From Eledone cirrhosa (lineage: Eukaryota), in NCBI GenBank assembly GCA_964016885.1, contig OZ024741.1, positions 371,876,001 through 371,940,000 of the forward strand: 64,000 nucleotides of DNA. Reading direction: 5' to 3'. Below, piece after piece: positions 10,980 through 64,000 of the stretch (position 1 is the first letter of the stretch; every line of letters begins with the position of its first letter). The translations under genes and the position numbers were made by a program. Below the pieces are notes generated by a model, which saw only the letters and a program-made list of their open reading frames with translations, was not told the DNA's origin and ran no database searches.

Positions 10980-11028
<49 letters not shown>

Positions 11029-11110
11029 GTTATTCCGGGTTGAATCGGAGGTAACCACAGTAAGTAAGGTACTCAATACATAGCAGAGTATAACAGTTTT
11101 AATATAGATG

Positions 11111-11158
11111 AGATTCTACAGGACGAGAACTGTTTCATTCATTAGAAATCATCAGGAA

Positions 11159-11161
<3 letters not shown>
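11111..11161 (-). ncRNA. Type I hammerhead ribozyme (GUA site) in a 135-bp island between TA arrays
   Basis: Minus strand: agattc CTGATGA t-ttc-taat-gaa-t GAAAC ag-ttctcgtc-ct GTA gaatct. Helix I is 6 bp and helix III is 4 bp. Confidence 0.85.
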
Positions 11162-13530: not shown

Positions 13531-13724
13531 GGAACCAGTAAGACCCCGACAGCTGAGCTCAAGCCGTTTCGACGGCTAATTCTGGAGTCCAGAATTAACC
13601 GTCGAAACGGCTTGAGCTCAGCTGTCGGGGTCTTACTGGTTCCTATTACCCACTCTACTACCTCAAGTATTGAGTACTTTGGTGCGTTATGGTCCACCTG
13701 GTTCCTTACCACATTTCCTTCGTT
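13529..13724 (+). mobile_element. Fold-back element (near-perfect palindrome 13529-13645 plus unique tail) inside (TA)n
   Basis: TAGGAACCAGTAAGACCCCGACAGCTGAGCTC...AATTCTGGA-G-TCCAGAATT...GAGCTCAGCTGTCGGGGTCTTACTGGTTCCTA. Confidence 0.85.
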
Positions 13725-13941: not shown

Positions 13942-14061
13942 TGTATATATATGTATATATATGTATATATGTATATATATGTATATATATATATATATGT
14001 ATATATATGTATATATAACCGTATGTCTCTCCACCACTCCCCTACACACCTTTTGAACTCT

Positions 14062-14095
14062 CACCTGAAGAAGGGCTTATGCCCGAAACGTCGTC
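14062..14095 (+). ncRNA. Minimal hammerhead motif in a Penelope pLTR-like fragment (14018-14187)
   Basis: CTGAAGA a gggc-ttat-gccc GAAAC GTC, with weak helix I and a downstream AATAAA. A degenerate relative is at 27614-27642. Confidence 0.6.
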
Positions 14096-14200
14096 CTCCA
14101 TCTACCCCACACTCTCCTGAGCGTGAATTTAATAAACATTTGTCGTACTGCCTCTCTGTTCTGTCCCTGTTCAATTTTTCATTATGTATATATATATGAA

Positions 14201-29205: not shown

Positions 29206-30140
29206 GAAGTGGTTACACAACAGTTAGTTCACCATACCGAGAACAATTGTTTCACCTTACGGATCCTCAGCTCGTAATGAACATGGTTATACGGAACAGG
29301 AACGACAACCGTACGAACGCGCATGCGCAGAAACGATCACTTCACGCAGGCAATACTAAATTGCGTGCGAGAGGTCTAAGGGAGATAACTGCGAAAGTCC
29401 GAAAAGTTTCTAGTTGATAAGAAAATTGGGATGTTGTTGTAATTTAATCCGGAGCTTTGTAGTTATGTAAGAGGTGTTTCCAGACGTGTGGACAACGTGT
29501 GAAGAATTCATTTCGCGTGTTTAGGCAATCACTATTGTGTAATCTCTTTAGTATATTTATTCGTTCATCAATACATAGTCCACACGACGGATTGCCCCTT
29601 GTGCATCGCTTGGACTTAGTGATGGCTTTCCATTGAATGGGGTAGTCTATACTTGAGTCCTTGATGGACCATACGTGGCTCGCGAGTTCCGTGGATGAAC
29701 GTCTGTCCGGGTACCTAAAGGTCGACAGGTGGTTCAGGAAGCGTTCCTTAAATCGGCCCTCCGCCATAACCACATAGGATTTGACCTCCTGTTTTTGATT
29801 TGGTCGGTTGGAAGTGACCACAGCTTCATAACTACAACGGGTGTGTTGCATTGCTGTTGAAGGGGACAAGCTTCAGGCTTACGGCAATAGCACCCTGGTG
29901 GGGTGTTGCTCTTAGGGCTGTTGGTGATGTGGGCCCTCATGTTCTTAGCGCAGGAGTATCCTAGTTTTACTTTATGTCGGTTAAAGATGGAGCGGTATTT
30001 ATATGATCGTTTCTGCGCATGCGCGTTCGTACGGTTGTCCTTCCTGTTCCATATAACCATGTCCATTACGAGCTGACGATCCGCTAAGGTGAAACAATTG
30101 TTCTCTGTATGGTGAACTAACTGTTGTGTAACCACTTCTA
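29204..30140 (-). mobile_element. Penelope-like element: frameshifted GIY-YIG flanked by inverted pLTR segments (29204-29339, 30004-30140), each with a minimal hammerhead (29239-29273 on -, 30070-30105 on +)
   Basis: KYRSIFNRHKVKLGYSC, CYCRKPEACPL, FKERFLNHLSTF, ELASHVWSIK, CGLCIDE; gag CTGAnGA t-cc-gtaa-gg-t GAAAC aatt GTT ctc. Confidence 0.9.
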
Positions 30141-30728
30141 CCTAACTCGTCCCATGGACTGAGTGCTCTACCACTACGGATATTACCTTCCAGTGTTCTA
30201 CCACTATATATATATGTATGTGTGTGTGTATATATATATCACTGTAACATGTTGATAATATTTCTGAACATCAATTGAGGGTGAAGTTTTAATGGGATTC
30301 GTGTTTAACAGAGAATTTGGGTTTCTTGGGCAATTATTTATTCCCATCTTCGTCCTCCTCCCATTAACTGCTGTCACCAATAAGGACTTCATTTGTTATT
30401 TATTCTACTATTAACACTTGATATTTAAGATCATCCTCTGTAAATTCTGGCCAGGATCTGACAGCATCCTCTGGGATATGTTTCGCCTTCCTTCTGATGT
30501 ATTACAATGAAACTTTTTTTTCTCGAACTTCTCAAAACCATATTCTACCTGGACATTGTAAAGAATTTATTTTCCAAGCATTAACTAGAATGGTGTACTT
30601 CAATGTCTTCTATGAAATGGGTAAATTGAATATTGTATATTTGGGGTTGTGGTTCTTGGTATTACTGAGAAGTCTTTGCTCTCGCGTGACTTCCCTAAGA
30701 TCATCCTCTTTTATTACCGTGAACACTT

Positions 30729-31795: not shown

Positions 31796-32206
31796 TATAT
31801 TCCACCTGGCATCTATTTATGCATCCCAACATAGTTTCTACTGTAGAGCATTCTGGGGATATTTTTCACTTCCTCTCTCCCACTTTCTATCCTTCGCTGG
31901 AATAAATCTGCTGTGTTCAGACTTGGATGGTTTGGGCTCCGCCATGTTTAAATATACCGTATACCTCTACGGCCCCTCTTTGACTTCATCGGGAGTTACG
32001 GGACCATACCACCACACTGTAATTGCTTTATTTAGCTTCAGTTAATATTATTTTCTAATTACTATTTTACAAAAAACGTTTTTTCTTTAAATTATTCCTC
32101 AAATTATACATCAATATTTTCTTTGTTTTTCAGAAAATATCCCAGGACTTTAGGAAAAACCAAAGTTGAAAACAATATTTCCCTGAAGTCGAGGGAAACG
32201 AGGAAA

Positions 32207-33331
32207 ATGGAAAATAACATTAGTACTAACGAGTCTATAAACATTTTAAAAGAGTTAAATGATGAAAAAACGATCACGTATTTACCTGTAATATTCTATG
32301 TCGGGATTTCTATGGTATTTGGAGCAATTGGAAACAGCGCTGTGTCTTATATATATTACTGTAAATTGGAAAAATCAGCGACAAATTTGTTTGTTGCAGT
32401 TCTTAGTGCTTGTGATTTGCTTAGCTGTCTAATTTCTATGCCTCTTGAAATTGTCGGTCTACGATTCTCTTTGACCTTTCACAGTGACATATCATGTCGT
32501 CTGACACGTTTTGTTGTGGCTGTGGGAACAATCACATCGGCGCTACTTATATTTGTTATATCCGTTGATAGATACATACGTGTTTGTTGCCCACTTGGTC
32601 GACATTTTACCCGTCGTTCAGCTAAAGTTGCATCAGCAGTAATGGTGTTTTCGTCAATATTGTTAGCGACACCAGCAGCTTTAGTTTTCGGCAAACAAAG
32701 GATCCCAACACGCATTGCTGGAATCATTGGTGAAGAATGCTCGATTGCTGAAGATATAAAAGATACACTGTATCCTTTAGCCTATTATTGCTCACTGTTG
32801 GTAACCTGCTTTACTTTATTTGTGGTTTTGATGACGTTGTACTTTCTCATTGGAATATTTGTTTGGAAACACAAGAAGAAAAATGTGGGAAGAATGCAAA
32901 AAGTGGTTTTTTCTCAACCATCCAATGAGCCCGTGTCTGCTGTCACTTCTTCCAGCAGACACACGCTAAAGTCAGAGGGGCATATTCGCTCAAAGACTTC
33001 CCGACCTATGAGCAATCCAGTTGAACATCGACAACCAAATGCAGTGAGAGTATCAAGGACCACTGTTATTATGTTTCTCATTACACTATTATGGATTGTT
33101 AGCTATTTACCTCATTTGGTAATGGTGACGTGTGAAATTGTCTTCAAAAACTTCCAAACTTCACTTGGCACCACAGGAGATGTTCTTTACAATTTATCCT
33201 TTCGCTCTTTCTTCTTCAACAACGCAATAAACCCGTTTATTTATGGCATTTTTAATCTTCGCTTTCGGAAAGAACTTTTTATCTTATTTGATAGGATTTT
33301 CGGAGCATGCTCCTGTAAAAACGATGAATAA
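32207..33331 (+). CDS. Rhodopsin-family (class A) GPCR, neuropeptide/CCK-receptor-like orphan, 374 aa, CDS uninterrupted by introns
   Basis: Seven hydrophobic segments; TM1 GN, TM2 LSACD, TM3 C...SVDRY, ECL2 Cys, TM6 SYLP, TM7 NPFIY, helix 8 FRKEL; N-terminal N-glycosylation sites (NIS, NES). First in-frame ATG at 32207; polypyrimidine+CAG acceptor at 32131-32133; AATAAA at the stop. Confidence 0.93.
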   Translation: MENNISTNESINILKELNDEKTITYLPVIFYVGISMVFGAIGNSAVSYIYYCKLEKSATNLFVAVLSACDLLSCLISMPLEIVGLRFSLTFHSDISCRLTRFVVAVGTITSALLIFVISVDRYIRVCCPLGRHFTRRSAKVASAVMVFSSILLATPAALVFGKQRIPTRIAGIIGEECSIAEDIKDTLYPLAYYCSLLVTCFTLFVVLMTLYFLIGIFVWKHKKKNVGRMQKVVFSQPSNEPVSAVTSSSRHTLKSEGHIRSKTSRPMSNPVEHRQPNAVRVSRTTVIMFLITLLWIVSYLPHLVMVTCEIVFKNFQTSLGTTGDVLYNLSFRSFFFNNAINPFIYGIFNLRFRKELFILFDRIFGACSCKNDE

Positions 33332-42697: not shown

Positions 42698-42709
42698 GTA
42701 TATATATTA

Positions 42710-43320
42710 TGTCAGGTCACCAGTTGGTGCTACTGGTAACATGTATCCCAGTACAACCAGTCTCATGGTCGGGTCGTTGGCGACTAAACTGGCAACCCCA
42801 CCAAGGTTTCTTGGTGAGGAGGGTGACTTTGGACATCCTGCAGGACCAAAAACAAAACCTGTCAAAGGGCAAGGGAGCTCTTAAGACTCAATAGCCATCC
42901 AAAATCACCGGGAGAGATGACCCCTTAGCCTTTGTCAAGGCAGAAATCTAGGAGAAGGAAAACTCTGATATAACACCTGCAACCCTGATGGTATCCAATG
43001 ATGTTGACTTGTTCTTCTTTTAGGTAAATATCATCTTGGTTAAGAGAGTGGGACTGGCTTTGTGCAGTGCCTTTGCTCACTATAAAAGCTTCACAGCACA
43101 GGCATTACTTTATATCTGGAGATCTCTCTGCACTTGTCATCACATGGTACCATGGGCCCTGCACTATGTGTCAATAATGGTCACAAGTGTAGTCTTTGTA
43201 CCAGAGTTTTCAAGTCGCTGGCTGGACTAAAAAGTCACATTCGTTCAGCGCATCGGTAGGGGTTCTCCTACATGGATATAAAGTAGTGGCCTTACTCGAA
43301 AACGAGTTGGCAGCCACCAT
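42710..43320 (+). mobile_element. Non-autonomous RTE-derived element of about 610 bp, copy 1
   Basis: Same termini as 44906-45515; RTE 5'UTR-like CTAGGAGAAGGAAAACTCTGA and a 3' Zn-finger remnant. Confidence 0.7.
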
Positions 43321-44730: not shown

Positions 44731-44905
44731 GTATATATATATATACATACATACATACATACATATATATATACATATATATATACATATATACATACAT
44801 ACATACATATATATATACATATATACATACATACATACATATATATATACATATATATATATACATATATATATACATACATACATATATACATACATAT
44901 GTATG

Positions 44906-45515
44906 TGTCAGGTCACCAGTTGGTGCTACTGGTAACATGTATCACAGTACAACCTGTCTCATGGACGGGTCGTTGGCGACTAAACTGGCAACCCCACCAA
45001 GGTTTCTTGCTGAGGAGGGTGACTTTGGACATCCTGCAGGACTAAAAACAAAACCTGTCAAAGGGCAAAGGAGCTCTTAAGAGTCAATGGCCATCCAAAA
45101 TCACCGGGAGAGATGACCCCTTAGCCTTTGTCAAGGCAGAATTCTAGGAGAAGAAAAACTCTGATATAACACCTGCAACCCTGATGGTATCCAATGATGT
45201 TGACTTGTTCTTCTTTTTGGTAAATATCATCTTGGTTAAGAGTGTGGGACTGGCTTTGTGCAGTGCCTTTGCTCACAATAAAAGCTTCACGGCATAGGCA
45301 TTGCTTTATATCTGGAGATCTCTCTGCACTTGTTGTCACATGGTACATGGGCCCAGCACAATGTGTCAATAGTTGTCACAAGTGTAGTGTTTGTACCAGA
45401 GTTTTCAAGTCGCTGGCTGGACTAAAAAGTCACACTCGTTCAGCTTATCGGTAGGGGTTCTCCTACATGGATATAAAGTAGTGGCCGTACGTGAAAACGA
45501 GTTGGCAGCCACCAT
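44906..45515 (+). mobile_element. Non-autonomous RTE-derived element of about 610 bp, copy 2
   Basis: [22 protein letters not shown] resembles the C2H2 C-terminus of RTE/BovB ORFs. Confidence 0.7.
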
Positions 45516-45734
45516 ATGTATATATATATATGTATATATATATATGTATATATGTATGTATATATATGTATGTATGTATGTATGTATATATATATATGTA
45601 TGTATATATATATATGTATATATATATATGTATATATGTATGTATATATATGTATGTATGTATGTATGTATATATATATATGTATGTATATATATATATG
45701 TATATATATATATGTATATGTATATATATATATC

Positions 45735-45789
<55 letters not shown>

Positions 45790-45808
45790 GTATATATGTA
45801 TATATATG

Positions 45809-45843
<35 letters not shown>

Positions 45844-45904
45844 GTATATATATATATGTATATATATATATGTATATATGTATATATATATATATATATA
45901 TGTG

Positions 45905-45949
<45 letters not shown>

Positions 45950-45975
45950 ATGTATATATGTATATATATGTATGT

Positions 45976-46016
<41 letters not shown>

Positions 46017-46038
46017 TATGTATATATATATATGTATG

Positions 46039-46083
<45 letters not shown>

Positions 46084-46084
46084 G

Positions 46085-46131
<47 letters not shown>

Positions 46132-46132
46132 G

Positions 46133-46213
<81 letters not shown>

Positions 46214-46228
46214 GTATATATATATATG

Positions 46229-46273
<45 letters not shown>

Positions 46274-46300
46274 GTATGTATATATATGTATATATGTATG

Positions 46301-46376
<76 letters not shown>

Positions 46377-46404
46377 TATATATATATGTATATATATATA
46401 TATG

Positions 46405-49400
46405 TATTAGAAAGATCGAGTATCGAAAAATCGGCGCACGAGTTCACGATAAACGAGATTCGAAATGAGCGGCAGAGGGCTCAATAATTCAGATGAATCA
46501 GAGCTATAACTATCGTTAAAATACCGTCACATATAGAACAAGTCTACAATCAACCATACGATTTAAAATCGATAGAGGAAGATTCGGGACAAACAGATAA
46601 AAAATATCAATAAAACAATACGTCAATAATTTAAATGAATGTAAAATCATACCCGGACCCACTAGACAGGTGTTAAATCTAGCTTCATGGGTTTCTGTAA
46701 ATCCTTAGACTGTACTCTATCAGCTCACATATAAATATAAAAGCCTACTAGAGTAAGCGGAACGGAGTTTTACTTTCTCAACGAGTTTTTTCCTGGCGGC
46801 AGAGGAGCCAACTACCAGTGAAAAACGCACATGGCATTAGACAAGGGAGATGACCCCTATATCCGCGAAAACAATTCGAGTGAATGTGGAAATACACATA
46901 TCGAATTAGAGTGCTCAATAGACAAGTTAAAATAAAACAAAAGCTATTCATCACTCAATAGAATCGACAAAAAATGAGCAATAAAATTAACTGGTGGATA
47001 GCTAAGTCCAGAGCTAAATATATTAGAAAGATCGAGAATCGAAAAATCGGCGCACGAGTTCACGATAAACGAGATTCGAAATGAGCGGCAGAGGGCTCAA
47101 TAATTCAGATGAATCAGAGCTATAACTATCGTTAAAATACCGTCACATATAGAACAAGTCTACAATCAACCATACGATTTAAAATCGATAGAGGAAGATT
47201 CGGGACAAACAGATAAAAAATATCAATAAAACAATACGTCAATAATTTAAATGAATGTAAAATCATACCCGGACCCACTAGACAGGTGTTAAATCTAGCT
47301 TCATGGGTTTCTGTAAATCCTTAGACTGTACTCTATCAGCTCACATATAAATATAAAAGCCTACTAGAGTAAGCGGAACGGAGTTTTACTTTCTCAACGA
47401 GTTTTTTCCTGGCGGCAGAGGAGCCAACTACCAGTGAAAAACGCACATGGCATTAGACAAGGGAGATGACCCCTATATCCGAGAAAACAATTCGAGTGAA
47501 TGTGGAAATACACATATCGAATTAGAGTGCTCAATAGACAAGTTAAAATAAAACAAAAGCTATTCATCACTCAATAGAATCGACAAAAAATGAGCAATAA
47601 AATTAACTGGTGGATAGCTAAGTCCAGAGCTAAATATATTAGAAAGATCGAGTATCGAAAAATCGGCGCACGAGTTCACGATAAACGAGATTCGAAATGA
47701 GCGGCAGAGGGCTCAATAATTCAGATGAATCAGAGCTATAACTATCGTTAAAATACCGTCACATATAGAACAAGTCTACAATCAACCATACGATTTAAAA
47801 TCGATAGAGGAAGATTCGGGACAAACAGATAAAAAATATCAATAAAACAATACGTCAATAATTTAAATGAATGTAAAATCATACCCGGACCCACTAGACA
47901 GGTGTTAAATCTAGCTTCATGGGTTTCTGTAAATCCTTAGACTGTACTCTATCAGCTCACATATAAATATAAAAGCCTACTAGAGTAAGCGGAACGGAGT
48001 TTTACTTTCTCAACGAGTTTTTTCCTGGCGGCAGAGGAGCCAACTACCAGTGAAAAACGCACATGGCATTAGACAAGGGAGATGACCCCTATATCCGCGA
48101 AAACAATTCGAGTGAATGTGGAAATACACATATCGAATTAGAGTGCTCAATAGACAAGTTAAAATAAAACAAAAGCTATTCATCACTCAATAGAATCGAC
48201 AAAAAATGAGCAATAAAATTAACTGGTGGATAGCTAAGTCCAGAGCTAAATATATTAGAAAGATCGAGTATCGAAAAATCGGCGCACGAGTTCACGATAA
48301 ACGAGATTCGAAATGAGCGGCAGAGGGCTCAATAATTCAGATGAATCAGAGCTATAACTATAGTTAAAATACCGTCACATATAGAACAAGTCTACAATCA
48401 ACCATACGATTTAAAATCGATAGAGGAAGATTCGGGACAAACAGATAAAAAATATCAATAAAACAATACGTCAATAATTTAAATGAATGTAAAATCATAC
48501 CCGGACCCACTAGACAGGTGTTAAATCTAGCTTCATGGGTTTCTGTAAATCCTTAGACTGTACTCTATCAGCTCACATATAAATATAAAAGCCTACTAGA
48601 GTAAGCGGAACGGAGTTTTACTTTCTCAACGAGTTTTTTCCTGGCGGCAGAGGAGCCAACTACCAGTGAAAAACGCACATGGCATTAGACAAGGGAGATG
48701 ACCCCTATATCCGCGAAAACAATTCGAGTGAATGTGGAAATACACATATCGAATTAGAGTGCTCAATAGACAAGTTAAAATAAAACAAAAGCTATTCATC
48801 ACTCAATAGAATCGACAAAAAATGAGCAATAAAATTAACTGGTGGATAGCTAAGTCCAGAGCTAAATATATTAGAAAGATCGAGTATCGAAAAATCGGCG
48901 CACGAGTTCACGATAAACGAGATTCGAAATGAGCGGCAGAGGGCTCAATAATTCAGATGAATCAGAGCTATAACTATCGTTAAAATACCTTCACATATAG
49001 AACAAGTCTACAATCAACCATACGATTTAAAATCGATAGAGGAAGATTCGGGACAAACAGATAAAAAATATCAATAAAACAATACGTCAATAATTTAAAT
49101 GAATGTAAAATCATACCCGGACCCACTAGACAGGTGTTAAATCTAGCTTCATGGGTTTCTGTAAATCCTTAGACTGTACTCTATCAGCTCACATATAAAT
49201 ATAAAAGCCTACTAGAGTAAGCGGAACGGAGTTTTACTTTCTCAACGAGTTTTTTCCTGGCGGCAGAGGAGCCAACTACCAGTGAAAAACGCACATGGCA
49301 TTAGACAAGGGAGATGACCCCTATATCCGCGAAAACAATTCGAGTGAATGTGGAAATACACATATCGAATTAGAGTGCTCAATAGACAAGTTAAAATAAA

Positions 49401-52400
49401 ACAAAAGCTATTCATCACTCAATAGAATCGACAAAAAATGAGCAATAAAATTAACTGGTGGATAGCTAAGTCCAGAGCTAAATATATTAGAAAGATCGAG
49501 TATCGAAAAATCGGCGCACGAGTTCACGATAAACGAGATTCGAAATGAGCGGCAGGGGGCTCAATAATTCAGATGAATCAGAGCTATAACTATCGTTAAA
49601 ATACCGTCACATATAGAACAAGTCTACAATCAACCATACGATTTAAAATCGATAGAGGAAGATTCGGGACAAACAGATAAAAAATATCAATAAAACAATA
49701 CGTCAATAATTTAAATGAATGTAAAATCATACCCGGACCCACTAGACAGGTGTTAAATCTAGCTTCATGGGTTTCTGTAAATCCTTAGACTGTACTCTAT
49801 CAGCTCACATATAAATATAAAAGCCTACTAGAGTAAGCGGAACGGAGTTTTACTTTCTCAACGAGTTTTTTCCTGGCGGCAGAGGAGCCAACTACCAGTG
49901 AAAAACGCACATGGCATTAGACAAGGGAGATGACCCCTATATCCGCGAAAACAATTCGAGTGAATGTGGAAATACACATATCGAATTAGAGTGCTCAATA
50001 GACAAGTTAAAATAAAACAAAAGCTATTCATCACTCACTAGAATCGACAAAAAATGAGCAATAAAATTAACTGGTGGATAGCTAAGTCCAGAGCTAAATA
50101 TATTAGAAAGATCGAGTATCGAAAAATCGGCGCACGAGTTCACGATAAACGAGATTCGAAATGAGCGGCAGAGGGCTCAATAATTCAGATGAATCAGAGC
50201 TATAACTATCGTTAAAATACCGTCACATATAGAACAAGTCTACAATCAACCATACGATTTAAAATCGATAGAGGAAGATTCGGGACAAACAGATAAAAAA
50301 TATCAATAAAATAATACGTCAATAATTTAAATGAATGTAAAATCATACCCGGACCCACTAGACAGGTGTTAAATCTAGCTTCATGGGTTTCTGTAAATCC
50401 TTAGACTGTACTCTATCAGCTCACATATAAATATAAAAGCCTACTAGAGTAAGCGGAACGGAGTTTTACTTTCTCAACGAGTTTTTTCCTGGCGGCAGAG
50501 GAGCCAACTACCAGTGAAAAACGCACATGGCATTAGACAGGGAGATGACCCCTATATCCGCGAAAACAATTCGAGTGAATGTGGAAATACACATATCGAA
50601 TTAGAGTGCTCAATAGACAAGTTAAAATAAAACAAAAGCTATTCATCACTCAATAGAATCGACAAAAAATGAGCAATAAAATTAACTGGTGGATAGCTAA
50701 GTCCAGAGCTAAATATATTAGAAAGATCGAGTATCGAAAAATCGGCGCACGAGTTCACGATAAACGAGATTCGAAATGAGCGGCAGAGGGCTCAATAATT
50801 CAGATGAATCAGAGCTATAACTATCGTTAAAATACCGTCACATATAGAACAAGTCTACAATCAACCATACGATTTAAAATCGATAGAGGAAGATTCGGGA
50901 CAAACAGATAAAAAATATCAATAAAACAATACGTCAATAATTTAAATGAATGTAAAATCATACCCGGACCCACTAGACAGGTGTTAAATCTAGTTTCATG
51001 GGTTTCTGTAAATCCTTAGACTGTACTCTATCAGCTCACATATAAATATAAAAGCCTACTAGAGTAAGCGGAACGGAGTTTTACTTTCTCAACGAGTTTT
51101 TTCCTGGCGGCAGAGGAGCCAACTACCAGTGAAAAACGCACATGGCATTAGACAAGGGAGATGACCCCTATATCCGCGAAAACAATTCGAGTGAATGTGG
51201 AAATACACATATCGAATTAGAGTGCTCAATAGACAAGTTAAAATAAAACAAAAGCTATTCATCACTCAATAGAATCGACAAAAAATGAGCAATAAAATTA
51301 ACTGGTGGATAGCTAAGTCCAGAGCTAAATATATTAGAAAGATCGAGTATCGAAAAATCGGCGCACGAGTTCACGATAAACGAGATTCGAAATGAGCGGC
51401 AGAGGGCTCAATAATTCAGATGAATCAGAGCTATAACTATCGTTAAAATACCGTCACATATAGAACAAGTCTACAATCAACCATACGATTTAAAATCGAT
51501 AGAGGAAGATTCGGGACAAACAGATAAAAAATATCAATAAAACAATACGTCAATAATTTAAATGAATGTAAAATCATACCCGGACCCACTAGACAGGTGT
51601 TAAATCTAGTTTCATGGGTTTCTGTAAATCCTTAGACTGTACTCTATCAGCTCACATATAAATATAAAAGCCTACTAGAGTAAGCGGAACGGAGTTTTAC
51701 TTTCTCAACGAGTTTTTTCCTGGCGGCAGAGGAGCCAACTACCAGTGAAAAACGCACATGGCATTAGACAAGGGAGATGACCCCTATATCCGCGAAAACA
51801 ATTCGAGTGAATGTGGAAATACACATATCGAATTAGAGTGCTCAATAGACAAGTTAAAATAAAACAAAAGCTATTCATCACTCAATAGAATCGACAAAAA
51901 ATGAGCAATAAAATTAACTGGTGGATAGCTAAGTCCAGAGCTAAATATATTAGAAAGATCGAGTATCGAAAAATCGGCGCACGAGTTCACGATAAACGAG
52001 ATTCGAAATGAGCGGCAGAGGGCTCAATAATTCAGATGAATCAGAGCTATAACTATCGTTAAAATACCGTCACATATAGAACAAGTCTACAATCAACCAT
52101 ACGATTTAAAATCGATAGAGGAAGATTCGGGACAAACAGATAAAAAATATCAATAAAACAATACGTCAATAATTTAAATGAATGTAAAATCATACCCGGA
52201 CCCACTAGACAGGTGTTAAATCTAGCTTCATGGGTTTCTGTAAATCCTTAGACTGTACTCTATCAGCTCACATATAAATATAAAAGCCTACTAGAGTAAG
52301 CGGAACGGAGTTTTACTTTCTCAACGAGTTTTTTCCTGGCGGCAGAGGAGCCAACTACCAGTGAAAAACGCACATGGCATTAGACAGGGAGATGACCCCT

Positions 52401-53509
52401 ATATCCGCGAAAACAATTCGAGTGAATGTGGAAATACACATATCGAATTAGAGTGCTCAATAGACAAGTTAAAATAAAACAAAAGCTATTCATCACTCAA
52501 TAGAATCGACAAAAAATGAGCAATAAAATTAACTGGTGGATAGCTAAGTCCAGAGCTAAATATATTAGAAAGATCGAGTATCGAAAAATCGGCGCACGAG
52601 TTCACGATAAACGAGATTCGAAATGAGCGGCAGAGGGCTCAATAATTCAGATGAATCAGAGCTATAACTATCGTTAAAATACCGTCACATATAGAACAAG
52701 TCTACAATCAACCATACGATTTAAAATCGATAGAGGAAGATTCGGGACAAACAGATAAAAAATATCAATAAAACAATACGTCAATAATTTAAATGAATGT
52801 AAAATCATACCCGGACCCACTAGACAGGTGTTAAATCTAGTTTCATGGGTTTCTGTAAATCCTTAGACTGTACTCTATCAGCTCACATATAAATATAAAA
52901 GCCTACTAGAGTAAGCGGAACGGAGTTTTACTTTCTCAACGAGTTTTTTCCTGGCGGCAGAGGAGCCAACTACCAGTGAAAAACGCACATGGCATTAGAC
53001 AAGGGAGATGACCCCTATATCCGCGAAAACAATTCGAGTGAATGTGGAAATACACATATCGAATTAGAGTGCTCAATAGACAAGTTAAAATAAAACAAAA
53101 GCTATTCATCACTCAATAGAATCGACAAAAAATGAGCAATAAAATTAACTGGTGGATAGCTAAGTCCAGAGCTAAATATATTAGAAAGATCGAGTATCGA
53201 AAAATCGGCGCACGAGTTCACGATAAACGAGATTCGAAATGAGCGGCAGAGGGCTCAATAATTCAGATGAATCAGAGCTATAACTATCGTTAAAATACCG
53301 TCACATATAGAACAAGTCTACAATCAACCATACGATTTAAAATCGATAGAGGAAGATTCGGGACAAACAGATAAAAAATATCAATAAAACAATACGTCAA
53401 TAATTTAAATGAATGTAAAATCATACCCGGACCCACTAGACAGGTGTTAAATCTAGCTTCATGGGTTTCTGTAAATCCTTAGACTGTACTCTATCAGCTC
53501 ACATATAAA
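46405..53509. repeat. Tandem array of a 616-bp unit, 11 full copies plus a 331-bp partial, near-identical
   Basis: Unit starts (TATTAGAAAGATCGAG) at 46405, 47021, 47637, 48253, 48869, 49485, 50101, 50716, 51332, 51948, 52563 and 53179; TA arrays on both sides. Confidence 0.98.
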
Positions 53510-56326
<2,817 letters not shown>

Positions 56327-58322
56327 GTATTTACGTATCGAGAAAGAGAGAAAAAGGAGGGATAGGTGATACATATAGTTATTTGCTAAGTAGCGTATGC
56401 CAAAGGTGCTCGATACTAGTGCCGGCAGTATTAAATATTCGAAGTGTTAATATTTAGTGGGCTAGAGAGTTAGCAGAGCGTAAGCCAGTGGGAAAGTAAA
56501 AAATCGGAGAATAGACCGTTAAAACATGTTTATTTAAAATATCACCTACGTACGTTTCGCCCAGTTGGGCTTCCCAAGGGCATAAATAATCACAAGTGTT
56601 CCTTATATAGTTCCGAAAGAGTTTGGGGGGTTAAATCTACATCAAGATTCATTGCTCGCAAAAATATCTTGTTTTGATTTTGCAGCAGGTCAAGGGATGT
56701 AACTCTGGCCGGTGTTAGGGCAGTCTTTCCTGGATAATTTTTTTTTTTTTTGCCGCATCCGTTTGTCTGAGGCTGGGTCTGGTATGCAAGGATTGTTTTC
56801 TGGGTGTTATTTTGCTGCGCCTGCCCGCCGGGGTGTTAAGACTTGTTGCAGGGAGATCCAGTGTACTATTTCACTCTTCATTCTTAACCCATCTAAAGAA
56901 GGATATTTTTAAGCGATGTGTACAACTTATCGCTGTTTCAGCTCTGCTGTTGATGAGCTCGTGGGGTGCAGTTATGATGTGGTAGAGCTCCATGAGGCAA
57001 AGATCGCATTTCCTCTTGAAGTTGTACGGTGCAGCCCTGCCGACAATCTCCCAGTGCGTGGAGAAGCTGATGTTTAAGTCCTTTAGTGATGTGATGTAGT
57101 CCGCGAGCGAAGTTTTCTATTTGTGAAAGAGTGGAGATGTGTTCGAAACCTAATTTTGAACGGGCCGGAGGTGGCCACTATATAATGTTTAACGCTATTG
57201 TGGCTAGTAATAGTGCATCTATATATAACCCTATCAGTCAAGCAGTATCCTCTAAGGGGGCAGCGTCCTCTGTCGCGGCAGTTGCAATTTCTGTCGCGGT
57301 TCCGTCTATTTCCCACGGTAAGGCTATCATTATTGCTGCCTACGTTGTTACCTACGCTACCGCAGCTGTCGTTAGCACAATTACAACCCACAGCACGCGG
57401 GATGGTGCGATTGTTATTCCGCACGTCATGTTCTGCATGTTCCCCAGTCACTTCGCGGTCATTCTGGTTGCGTCTGCGGATACCGCTGCCAACACTATTG
57501 GATGCTGTCAGGGAGTTGTTAAGGCCGATATAGTTATTGTCAGGTGTAGGTGCGTCTGTGTCGAGGTGCTGTGTCTTGGTGATCTTACTGTGGTTCGTTG
57601 TTCCTATGATGTCTGCTAGGTTAGGAGTAGTAGAGAAGGATATTTTTATATTGTTCCTATTAAGAATTTTTCTATACCTATGGTTGGGTGGGAAGTTCTT
57701 CTCTAAGGCTTCGAAGAATATCCGGGGTATGTTGGAGGCCACACTTCGAGAGTAGGGGGGGTGGAACCATAGGACGTTACGGTGGCGATTACGTGTCCTT
57801 GTACTTTTGCTACGGGTGGTTCCATCTAAGTGATCGCTCTTATGTGTGTTAATGCGCTGTCGCCCGTTCGGTGCCCCTTTCACTTTATGCTCGGGTGCAC
57901 TCCTTCTACCTCTTCCATGTTTATGTACACGAAGATGTTGGTTGGAAGGCGTTGGTAGTAGGCCGTCGCCTTTGTTGGTTTTGTAATAGGGGAATAGTTC
58001 TAGTAATCTACAGTGGTCACCGTCGCCGGGGACGTGATCTTTGGTGCGGTTATCTATTCTATTATATCCGACTTTAACGAGGTCGCCGCGTGATCGGTTA
58101 TAGGTATGGCTTACTATAACGTTAGTTTTATGAGGGGGGTGGTTTCTAGAGCTAGCGTTAGAGATGTAGGAAATTCCTCGGTTAAAGCCGGCGCTTATTA
58201 GGGCCCTATTGTAGTAATCAGCCGTTTGGTTGAAGATATCCTCATTGGCGGATAGCCTCGAGATTCTATGTGAGATACTATAGACTATGGAGTTGAGAGT
58301 CTGCTTAGGGTGGTTGGAGGCA
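56327..58322 (-). mobile_element. 5'-truncated Penelope-like element: RT thumb, linker and frameshifted GIY-YIG, with a decayed hammerhead at 56544-56580
   Basis: [29 protein letters not shown] (manual translation), [41 protein letters not shown]...CDLCLME; gccc-aact-gggc GAAAC gtac GTA then AATAAA on -. Confidence 0.88.
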
Positions 58323-58328
58323 TAATTA

Positions 58329-60896: not shown

Positions 60897-61287
60897 TATA
60901 TTAATAAGAGGAATTCCAACTTTGTCTGATTTACTCGTTTTATTTACAATCCTTTAAAATTTATAATGCTATTAAAATGAAATAGTATGATAGAATATTA
61001 AATTCTAAGTGTTAATTGAACAAGTACTTTCATGCTTTCGCAATCTTCAGGTTCATAATATGTGGTGACAGTCAAGTTTGCAATTTTCAACAGTTGAAAA
61101 TTGCAAACTTGACTGTCACCACATATTATGAACCTGAAGATTGCGAAAGCATGAAAGTACTTGTTCAATTAACACTTAGAATTTAATATTCTATCATACT
61201 ATTTCATTATAATAGCATTATAAATTTTAAAGGATTGTAAATAAAACGAGTAAATCAGACAAAGTTGGAATTCCTCATATTAATATA
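60897..61287. repeat. Near-perfect palindrome (arms of about 195 bp, centre 61092) with an intact minimal hammerhead in each arm (61017-61055 on -, 61129-61167 on +)
   Basis: TTTTCAAC-A-GTTGAAAA centre; tgaac CTGAAGA t-tgc-gaaa-gca-t GAAA gtac TT gttca. Confidence 0.9.
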
Positions 61288-61361
61288 ATCTTCTATACAC
61301 AATCATACACACCCGTGTATATTTATCTATCTATATATATATGTATATATATATATATGTG

Positions 61362-62109: not shown

Positions 62110-64000
62110 TCCTGTTAAGAATCATCCTGTTCAGGGTCTTTGCCACAAGTGACGTCAGTGAGATCCCCCCGGTAGTTGTTGGTGTTAGAGAGATCTCCCT
62201 TCTTTGGCACTGGGACGATGTTACTGATCCTCCACTGATTCGGGGCAACTCCTTTTTCCAGTGCCCCGTTACAGAACCCCAGGATGATATCATCAAAATC
62301 ACACCTCTTCATCACCTCTGATGCCACTCCATCTTCTCCATGATCCTTGCCCTCCTTGATCCTCTTCTTGGCTCTCTGAAGCTCCTCTCAGGTGAAGGGC
62401 TCTGTCTCAACATCCAGTTCCTCAAACAGCCGCCTGTAGGGTCCTAAAATGGTCTAGTCATTTCCTCTTCCTATCCTCGGGCCCCGTTCCCTGGATCTGA
62501 CTCGAACACCTTCTCTTCCTCCCTGTGATCTCGTTGATGATCATCCAGCTCTCCTTACATCCAGATCTGTCAACCGCTCTCTCCAGACTTCTGATCTTCT
62601 CTATCAGTGCCTCCTCTCTGACCTCAGTGTAAGCGGTACAGAGCTCTTCCCTCATCACCTCCATAGTCTCCATCCTCTCCTCCGTAGGATCAGCATAGAA
62701 TTGGTCCCTGGCAGCTTTCAGGTGTTCTCTGGCTGCACACACTTTTGGGTTTGCAGAGCTGACGTGCTTCCCTTTATTCTTTTTCCTCGGCACCAGGGCT
62801 TCACTTGCTTCCGCCACTGCATTGGTGAAGTGCCCGTACCTCCTCGTCACACTCTCCTCAGTCCATCCAATCTCTCTCTCCTCTGACTCTCCACACAGAG
62901 CACTAAAACTGTTTCTCACTTCCACTGTGAACCTCTCCTGTAGCTTATCATCTTCCTTGAAAGCTCCCCAGTCATAGATTGTTCTCCGGGGCTGAGCCTT
63001 GCTCTTTCTTAAGCTCACGCGGACCTCACTCATAACAAGCCGGTGGTCACTACCCAGTGTACTGAAATAGCTGTATGGTTCCGTGTTCAGAACACTATTC
63101 CGCCACTTTTTCCTCACCAGAATGAAATCAATCTGGGACTTGGATAGGTGCATATCTGAGATGTAGGTCCACATCTTCCCCAGATTCTTCCTAAACCTTA
63201 GGTTGGTCGCCATCAAGTTCGCCTCCAGCAGGGTGTCTCTCAGTAGTCTTCCATTTCGGTTGGTGTTGTTATGGAAGTACCAGCAAGGATCTTCACTGCC
63301 CTCCTTACTCAGGTGTGCATTGAAGTCCCCCAAAACAAGCAGGATATTGTGTGCCTGAGTGGTGTTGACAGCTCTACACACCTCCTCATGGAACTCTTCT
63401 GCATTCACATCGCTGTCCCCCTCGGTTGGACTATAGGCTGAGATGACTGTCAGTCTTGGGTTTCCATTGAAGGTCACCCTCAACACTCGCGGGCAGATAG
63501 GCATTATTTCCCTCACCAACAGATTAGTTTTTGCACTGAACACAAAACTCACTCCTCCTACTGCAGCATTTGTTGTGTTCTTCACTGCCGATGTAGTGAT
63601 GAGCTGGCTCTTCTTCCCAATCATGACACTCCTCACGGGTTCATCGTGTAGAATCCTGTGTTCTTGGATCGCAAGTATCTGTATACCACTCTCCTCGAAC
63701 AGATGTCCCAACTCCTCTCTCTTCTCCAGCGTCCGAATAGTCCTCACATTCAAAGTGCCCATATTGATGGCTCTTCTGCAGGACAAAACTGCATTCTTTA
63801 TATTTGTCTCAGAGACAGCTGATCCATCATCCACTGGCCCTCTCTGTGGCTCTAAGCCAGCATAGTCATAACGACCAGGCTGCTCCTTGACAGTGTAATT
63901 AGGGGCTCTAACCCTAGTGCTGTTAGATCGACTCTCCATATTTCTTTTCAATGGTTGACAATACCTTACCGCGCCACTCGAATAAGGTAGTTATTTAACC
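62110..64000 (-). mobile_element. RTE-clade LINE, 5' part: AP endonuclease ORF (62458-63951) plus frameshifted start of RT (62110 to about 62400); 3'-truncated
   Basis: GTLNVRT, LAIQEHR, ISAYSPT, LGDFNAH, SQIDFILV, SDHRLV; then [37 protein letters not shown] ending in (TA)n. Confidence 0.93.

What the first reader, a model, noticed from the sequence alone, without database searches (positions are those of the whole stretch)
46405..53509. 616-bp satellite carrying a variant hammerhead-like fold in every unit
Seen on the minus strand (unit 1, 46648-46731): CTGATAGA gta-c-agtc-taag-gatt-tac A GAAA ccca-tgaag-ctaga-[11 nt]-tctag-tggg TC. Helix III (ACCCA/UGGGU plus CUAGA/UCUAG) ends in a correctly placed GUC. 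However, the core is non-canonical (CUGAUAGA, extra A before GAAA) and helix I is weak. The array is ORF-less, near-identical, TA-flanked, similar in unit size to the 540-570 nt HHR family, and begins on the minus strand about 12 nt before the CUGA. Inference: a recent concatemeric retrozyme-like insertion or a satellite born from one, with either a new core variant or an inactivated ribozyme.
Basis: partly seen in the sequence, partly recalled or inferred. Interest (0 to 1): 0.8.

Follow-up and report, generated by a model that had tools for sequence, protein, structure and literature searches.

The report
Mobile tandem retrozyme with rewired hammerhead
This 7-kb repeat is one of about 2,000 scattered insertions of a small non-coding mobile element that lands in TA microsatellites, likely copied round and round from an RNA circle by a Penelope-type retrotransposon, and it carries half of a hammerhead ribozyme whose other half is so altered that it would be either a new self-cutting RNA variant or a relic.

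Summary
The array is real (11 units of 615-616 bp plus a 331-bp partial) but it is not an ordinary satellite. It is one insertion of a dispersed family: at least 1,927 insertions share the same minus-strand 3' end fused to (TA)n, while 5' ends vary. Of 166 sized insertions, 78 exceed one unit, and arrays reach 19 units or more. Diverged sister families add about 2,000 motif copies.

The hammerhead's 3' half (GAAA, A-U, GUC, helix III) is kept, with compensatory changes. The 5' half is not canonical: U4, G8/A9, helix II and helix I fail.

Insertion 5' ends pile up just downstream of the predicted cut (29 of 88 single-pass insertions within 0 to +25 nt, 1 within -26 to -1). That fits an RNA end there, or a reverse-transcriptase pause at the hairpin.

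A young, intact Penelope-like element shares the target, a 10-nt terminal motif and the ribozyme-to-end spacing; it is the likely helper. Cleavage, circular RNA and expression are untested. Verdict: new variant of non-LTR retrozymes / non-autonomous PLEs.

The parts
46406..53509 (-). One insertion of the element: 11 full 615-616 bp units plus a 331-bp 5'-truncated unit (53180-53509); the minus strand is the inferred RNA sense
46406..46435 (-). Fixed 3' end of the insertion (inferred priming site), with the terminal motif TTTTCGATAC...TTCTA; the same word recurs inside every unit junction
46656..46723 (-). Hammerhead-derived motif of unit 1 (C3 at 46723, GUC ending at 46656; predicted cut 46656|46655). 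Repeated in all 12 units, the last at 53430-53497
46630..46655 (-). Zone 0 to +25 nt downstream of the predicted cut, where 5' ends of short insertions elsewhere in the genome pile up
53498..53513 (-). Variable 5' end of this insertion, joined to the TA tract at a TATAT run
45514..46407 (.). TA/TATG microsatellite tract at the fixed end (target)
53510..56326 (.). TA/TATG microsatellite tract at the truncated end
56327..58328 (-). 5'-truncated, frame-broken copy of the candidate helper Penelope-like element; minimal hammerhead region near 56543-56581 and terminal motif TTCTCGATAC...TAC at 56327-56345

Best explanation
The array is a single insertion of a non-coding mobile element with about 2,000 insertions that share one fixed end in (TA)n, likely copied by target-primed reverse transcription from a 616-nt RNA circle by a Penelope-like helper. 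Shown: dispersal, a fixed minus-strand 3' end, variable 5' ends, multimers that look copied from one template each, a conserved 3' half-hammerhead with covarying helix III, and a pile-up of 5' ends just after GUC. Inferred: (1) tandem copies are transcribed on the minus strand; (2) the RNA is cut at or next to GUC, slowly or with protein help, giving monomers, part of which are ligated into circles; (3) the helper's GIY-YIG nuclease nicks (TA)n and its RT primes at an internal UAUAU-containing site about 240-250 nt downstream of the cut; (4) on a linear monomer the RT runs off after about 240 nt and joins at the nearest TA-like run, giving the 218-237 bp class; on a circle it rolls on, giving multimers such as this 11.5-mer; (5) a few arrays later expand locally like satellites.
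For: Junction counts 747 + 1,180 with reversed-pattern controls 0; 3,000 core words against 81 control. The same 3' end holds across subfamilies 81-96% alike. 78 of 166 insertions exceed one unit. In 74 multimers the two last units differ by 0.4% against 0.77% to the nearest other insertion; closer 44, tie 25, farther 5; 29 private letters are shared between units, 36 not. First-pass ends: 29 in 0..+25, 1 in -26..-1; later passes 9 and 8 (Fisher p 0.0006; by type p 0.028 and 0.012). One insertion (L169) starts exactly at the cut with a non-TA flank. The most U-rich windows and several longer TA runs lie elsewhere and hold fewer ends. Compensatory pairs in helix III: C-G 37 / U-A 3 and G-C 21 / A-U 16. 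Helper: 910-aa intact ORF in 3.3-kb partial tandems, about 600 junctions with TTCTCGATAC...TAC|TATA, internal junction TAC-TATATT as in the O-type unit, its own hammerhead 220-224 nt from the end against 239-248 here. PLE RT is known to start internally, downstream of a protein-assisted hammerhead (PMC11167929).
Against: No RNA data: no cleavage, circle or transcript was observed. The core is non-canonical and helices I and II fail; lineages with G or U in place of A9 still spread. The pile-up depends on lineage: 1 of 32 first-pass stops in the youngest group, 1 of 8 in the group nearest the window, 7 of 21 in an older one, so first-versus-later differences in the W type are confounded. In the O type the stop rate is the same in later passes (7 of 23 against 19 of 74), as a structural pause would give. 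Helix III ends 2 nt from the predicted cut, so position alone cannot separate cutting from stalling. The helper shows no pile-up after its own hammerhead (0 of 10 closed insertions) and no alignment to the unit beyond chance (146 of 300 shuffles). Local homogenisation could also make units of one array alike.
Confidence: 0.6

Rival explanations
1. Same mobile family and helper, but the ribozyme is dead. Templates are uncut read-through multimers or are re-copied by template jumps, the conserved hairpin serves as a protein-binding or folding element, and 5' ends pile up because the RT pauses at helix III.
For: Core changes that usually abolish cleavage (CUGANAA was inactive in PMC8490949; 8 of 9 tested Xenopus retrozymes did not cleave). 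Hammerhead mutants did not impair PLE insertion in vitro. Equal stop rate in later passes in the O type. The youngest, most amplified lineage hardly stops there.
Against: G5, A6, GAAA, A-U and C17, which are catalytic-core positions and not just stem positions, are kept across families about 65-85% alike. Similar or stronger local folds elsewhere in the unit give no such peak.
Confidence: 0.25
2. The RNA 5' end near GUC is a transcription start, and the conserved upstream block is a promoter that only resembles a hammerhead.
For: A start site would also give a one-sided edge; Penelope has its start site in the pLTR (PMC8557442); the upstream words are conserved in sequence more than in pairing.
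Against: Compensatory pairs point to selection on an RNA helix. The edge coincides with a GUC closing an A-U pair after GAAA. Later-pass ends are not one-sided.
Confidence: 0.07
3. The element is mobilised by a (TA)n-targeting LINE with an APE nuclease rather than by a PLE.
For: Intact LINE-type RT frames are abundant; no extended homology to the PLE was found.
Against: Partial tandems, inverted copies, internal priming and the shared terminal motif are PLE traits; of the 100 listed matches to the terminal motif outside this family, nearly all were the PLE end. LINE 3' ends were not compared.
Confidence: 0.05
4. Ordinary satellite DNA with a chance fold, spread by DNA circles or unequal crossing-over.
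For: Tandem, near-identical, non-coding; one old array on C1 near 81.71-81.75 Mb spans about 39 kb; units 7 and 10, and 8, 9 and 11, of the window share variants.
Against: At least 1,927 dispersed insertions with one fixed, strand-specific end, about half shorter than one unit; covariation in the motif.
Confidence: 0.03

Closest known systems
Metazoan non-LTR retrozymes (Cervera and de la Pena 2020, PMC7229834; Li et al. 2026, 10.64898/2026.07.22.740005)
   Same: Non-coding, low-GC tandem units, dispersed as monomers to multimers, a type I hammerhead-like motif per unit, co-occurring PLEs; unit size within the 51-972 bp range of the preprint.
   Different: The hammerhead core is non-canonical and would be missed by their descriptors; helix III is long and helices I and II are weak, the reverse of the usual animal type; a fixed priming end and (TA)n targeting are mapped here; expression and circles are not shown.
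Non-autonomous Penelope-like elements such as MRC1 of Chlamydomonas (Craig et al. 2021, PMC8557442)
   Same: Head-to-tail multicopy insertions, fixed 3' end, 5' truncation, microsatellite targets, occasional inverted copies.
   Different: MRC1-type elements generally resemble an autonomous family at the 3' end and Chlamys mostly lack hammerheads; here only a 10-nt motif and the spacing are shared with the PLE found.
Poseidon PLE of Anolis (Frangieh et al. 2024, PMC11167929)
   Same: Internal RT start downstream of a hammerhead cut, AT-rich targets, tandem organisation.
   Different: Autonomous; cut-to-start distance about 85-92 nt against about 240; priming there is not homologous to the target, whereas here the junction word TATAT matches the target.
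Natural hammerhead core variants (Perreault et al. 2011, PMC3088659: A6a insertion, U3-A8, one-pair stem II)
   Same: An 8-nt CUGA-N-N-GA core has a precedent with low activity; stem II can be very short.
   Different: Here U4 varies freely (U 17, A 11, G 11, C 1 of 40), A9 is not kept and helix I has one Watson-Crick pair followed by two purine-purine mismatches.

Membership tests
Canonical type I hammerhead | CUGANGA core | tested here: not met
   In 40 copies: C3 37, U4 17, G5 40, A6 37, G at position 8 in 8, G at position 9 in 38 (one row, L426, mis-anchored). Read with a one-base insertion, C3-G8 holds in 35 of 40 but A9 in only 11.
Canonical type I hammerhead | GAAA, A15.1-U16.1 pair and H17 cut site | tested here: met
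   40 of 40, but all 40 were cut out with a pattern that demands these words. Unconditioned support: 4 of 4 diverged copies found by profile search carry them.
Canonical type I hammerhead | Helix III | tested here: met
   4 pairs 100% paired, one compensatory change C-G/U-A (3 related copies); distal stem G-C 21 / A-U 16.
Canonical type I hammerhead | Helix II closed by G10.1-C11.1 | tested here: not met
   51.5% of cells paired, first pair 15 of 40; no register works across families.
Canonical type I hammerhead | Helix I | tested here: not met
   G-C 39 of 40, then two positions 0 of 40, then U-G 39 and G-U/A-U 31.
Canonical type I hammerhead | Match to Rfam hammerhead models | tested here: not met
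   No match at gathering score or at E up to 10; the helper's minimal hammerhead is also missed by Rfam.
Canonical type I hammerhead | Self-cleavage at the UH site | not testable with these tools
   Indirect only: pile-up of 5' ends.
Non-LTR retrozyme | Non-coding low-GC tandem units of some hundred bp at many loci | tested here: met
Non-LTR retrozyme | Complete type I hammerhead in each unit | tested here: not met
   A hammerhead-derived motif is in each unit but fails core and helix tests.
Non-LTR retrozyme | Expressed as linear and circular monomer RNA | not testable with these tools
   No RNA holder listed.
Non-LTR retrozyme | Target-site duplication | tested here: inconclusive
   Hidden by the TA target; 112 of 155 closed 5' ends abut a TA run.
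Non-autonomous Penelope-like element | Partial tandems with fixed 3' end and 5' truncation, microsatellite target | tested here: met
Non-autonomous Penelope-like element | Inverted 5'-truncated copy at some loci | tested here: met
   L022; not counted genome-wide.
Non-autonomous Penelope-like element | Sequence similarity to the end of an autonomous PLE | tested here: inconclusive
   Only a 10-nt motif, the junction word and the spacing are shared; alignment score not above shuffles (146, 146 and 231 of 300). One PLE family was compared; the genome holds many.
Non-autonomous Penelope-like element | Intact PLE helper in the genome | tested here: met
   910-911 aa ORFs in L386-L389 with a YRDD RT motif and a C-terminal VIY...YIG nuclease-like motif read by eye; no Pfam match itself, homologues carry PF00078 and PF26215. 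The PLE label rests on these and on recalled motifs; clade not determined.
Ordinary satellite DNA | Clustered arrays without a fixed, strand-specific end | tested here: not met
Hairpin ribozyme | 4x4 loop A and loop B joined through H2-H3 (consensus recalled) | tested here: not met
   By inspection of the alignment: the supposed loop B bases lie in the covarying distal stem; no Rfam match.

The most novel reading that the evidence does not exclude
The motif is an active self-cleaving RNA with a rewired core: it keeps the hammerhead's GAAA/GUC half but works without a Watson-Crick helix II, U4 or A9, perhaps with protein help or a partner strand. About 5,000 copies in several diverged families would then be a ribozyme variant that current descriptors miss, and the insertion lengths would be a genomic record of both its cut site and of rolling-circle reverse transcription.
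Probability: 0.3. Interest if true: 0.85.

Novelty: new variant of a known kind. Interest (0 to 1): 0.6.

Why it matters
Rolling-circle reverse transcription of retrozyme circles by PLE enzymes is a published hypothesis (PMC7229834, discussion); the passages and sections read gave no mapped priming site for it. This family supplies a fixed priming site, a named candidate helper with an intact ORF, thousands of young insertions whose lengths can be read as a processivity record, and a predicted RNA end. That makes the hypothesis directly testable. If the motif cleaves, it widens the hammerhead core rules and implies that descriptor-based surveys undercount retrozymes. If it does not, it shows such elements can keep spreading after losing catalysis.

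Tried and rejected
Rfam scans of the window, of two units and of the helper: no ribozyme match. Canonical-core versions of the family: 0 hits; 6 hits against 1 control, none with the family's words. RNA evidence: no RNA holder listed. X1 gave short, partly fitting pieces that look like bisulfite DNA by eye. X7 holds one 645-nt contig that closes on itself at depth 12.8, which a tandem array or a circle would both give, and its kind is not on record. No evidence either way. Sister-family replicate of the pile-up: only 9 chance copies, 2 in 0..+25 and 0 in -26..-1, too few; a first attempt was swamped by low-complexity hits and its output was cut. The W-type 'first pass only' effect (10 of 65 against 2 of 100) was set aside after stratifying by lineage. 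Non-circular hammerhead permutations (PMC10085705), HDV-like and hairpin readings: no fitting blocks by inspection. Whole-unit consensus folding gave weak covariation; the monomer folds somewhat better than shuffles (z -2.2, 20 shuffles). Outside the genome: 14 viral-contig matches fit only the pattern words; 0 in metagenome contigs for the sister-family pattern. The repeat finder on the window returned only TA tracts. The generic RT search returned LINE-like and other RT frames that were not followed up. In one search the helix I column was off by one; one search corrects it. Earlier findings of the scan: nothing shown.

Full report
Observation. The window holds 11 units of 615-616 bp from 46406 and a 331-bp partial ending near 53509, each within 0-2 changes of unit 1, between TA/TATG tracts. 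GC is 36-37% and the longest ATG frame in a unit is 57 aa. The minus strand of all 12 copies carries CUGAUAGA...GAAA...GUC. Rfam finds nothing, and the hammerhead is not the predicted fold. A descriptor fitted to the motif is met by 2 of 3000 shuffles, a relaxed one by 186 of 3000.

It is a dispersed family. The own genome (G000, 3.0 Gb) gave 870 candidates, of which 40 were scored. The core word occurs 3,000 times against 81 for the reversed control. Two exact junction words, each fused to TATATATA, occur 747 (W type) and 1,180 (O type) times with controls 0, so at least 1,927 insertions. Subfamilies are 81-96% alike to the window unit, with units of 608-616 bp. The minus-strand 3' end is the same across them and the 5' end varies; 112 of 155 closed 5' ends abut a TA run. 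From established knowledge of target-primed reverse transcription, this polarity makes the minus strand the RNA. The junction word also lies inside every unit, so priming is internal to the repeat. The array's edge 12 nt before CUGA is this copy's truncation: 0 of 155 other ends lie within 6 nt of it.

Insertion lengths. I sized the first 71 of 747 W-type and first 95 of 1,180 O-type junctions in contig order on C1 (166; eight loci from other contigs, found by a best-score search, were dropped). Listed arrays reach 19 units and one older array spans about 39 kb. Of 88 single-pass insertions, 29 begin 0 to +25 nt after the predicted cut (binomial p 2e-18 against uniform) and 1 begins in the 26 nt before it. 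In later passes the numbers are 9 and 8 (p 0.0006; p 0.028 and 0.012 by type). First-pass ends cluster at +4 to +7 and +11 to +23, at TA-like letters; L169 begins at the cut itself. Against a cleavage reading: in the O type later passes stop as often (7 of 23 against 19 of 74); the effect differs by lineage (1 of 32, 7 of 21, 1 of 8 in the three W groups); helix III ends 2 nt from the cut and could stall the enzyme; the helper shows no such pile-up (0 of 10 closed insertions). Units within an insertion are more alike than the nearest other insertion (44 closer, 25 tied, 5 farther of 74). That fits one template per insertion, though local homogenisation would look similar.

The motif. A profile search of the fetched DNA found four diverged relatives. 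A pattern that largely excludes the window's family then gave 2,007 matches against 5 controls; these also form partial tandems of about 570-670 bp. In 40 copies (22 from that pattern, 4 from the profile search, 14 of the window's family) the 3' half is kept. It is demanded by the extraction pattern, but present in 4 of 4 unconditioned copies. Helix III covaries; the compensatory changes are inherited within lineages, so they are few events. The unconditioned 5' part keeps G2.1, C3 (37), G5 (40), A6 (37) and a G seven places on (38), but U4 varies (17 U, 11 A, 11 G, 1 C) and A9 is not kept. L399, L413 and L416 read CUGACGG, one change from canonical, which supports hammerhead ancestry. It fails membership of canonical hammerheads while resembling one.

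The helper. The island at 56327-58328 is a truncated, frame-broken Penelope-like copy. Its family is young (91-97% identity over 137 aa in 149 other scored matches), has 910-911 aa intact frames in 3.3-kb partial tandems, and ends in TTCTCGATAC...TAC|TATA at about 600 sites (335 forward; 889 reverse, counted up to three times). Its internal junction reads TAC-TATATT like the O-type unit, and its own minimal hammerhead has the U3-A8 core described for PLEs (PMC4209133) 220-224 nt from the end, against 239-248 here. No longer homology was found, so the partnership is an inference.

Mechanism and rivals. Most likely: minus-strand transcription, cutting at or near GUC, partial circularisation, and internal priming by the PLE enzyme at nicked (TA)n; linear monomers give the 218-237 bp class and circles give multimers (0.6). 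Main rival: dead ribozyme, uncut or jumped templates and a pause at the hairpin (0.25). A transcription start (0.07), a LINE helper (0.05) and ordinary satellite (0.03) are less likely. That this is a mobile RNA-templated family rather than a plain satellite is well supported; circle and cleavage are not shown.

Literature seen. 10.64898/2026.07.22.740005: parts 1-3 of 5. PMC7229834: abstract, first third of Results, Discussion. PMC11167929: parts 1-2 of 4. PMC8557442: passages. PMC4209133: part 1 of 4. PMC10085705: abstract and section 13. PMC3088659: passages and section 8. PMC8490949: passages. Eight searches listed no paper that names this family or core, judged from titles and abstract starts. 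No supplements were opened; those of PMC8557442 (HHR_core families) and of the 2026 preprint, and Repbase, may bear on novelty. Hammerhead numbering, the hairpin-ribozyme consensus and PLE protein motifs are recalled.

Verdict. New variant of a known kind: works like a non-LTR retrozyme or non-autonomous PLE, not filed as a canonical hammerhead retrozyme. Interest 0.6; 0.85 if the rewired motif cleaves (probability about 0.3).

Noticed in passing
   Followed up: partly
window 29206-30204: Element with inverted terminal repeats, each holding a minimal hammerhead (near 29242-29270 minus, 30073-30102 plus) around a GIY-YIG-like fragment; PLE-type inverted structure.
   Followed up: no
window 11027-11160 and 14018-14182: Further short TA-flanked fragments with minimal hammerhead words; the fetched flanks hold many such families, several with the U3-A8 core.
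   Followed up: partly
window 32036-33331 (+): Intact 431-aa frame of a rhodopsin-family seven-transmembrane receptor (PF00001, E 3e-29).
   Followed up: no
window 62458-63990 (-): LINE-type APE endonuclease fragment (PF14529).
   Followed up: no
window 42708-43318 and 44901-45513: Two related 611-613 bp TA-flanked inserts, unrelated to the 616 unit despite the size.
   Followed up: no
window 13531-13723 and 60901-61331: Long near-perfect palindromes inside TA tracts, typical of inverted PLE-type ends.
   Followed up: no
G000:C1:81.71-81.75 Mb (L104-L115): An O-type array of about 39 kb whose units differ by up to 3%, apparently expanded locally into a satellite-like block.
   Followed up: partly
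window 50102-53179: Units 7 and 10 share a one-base deletion and units 8, 9 and 11 share a change that turns a G-U pair of helix III into A-U; suggests exchange between units after insertion, or a mixed template.
   Followed up: partly
runs X2, X3, X5, X6, X7: The family is also held by runs labelled as organisms B-E, with both young and older subfamily letters in X2 and X3.
   Followed up: partly
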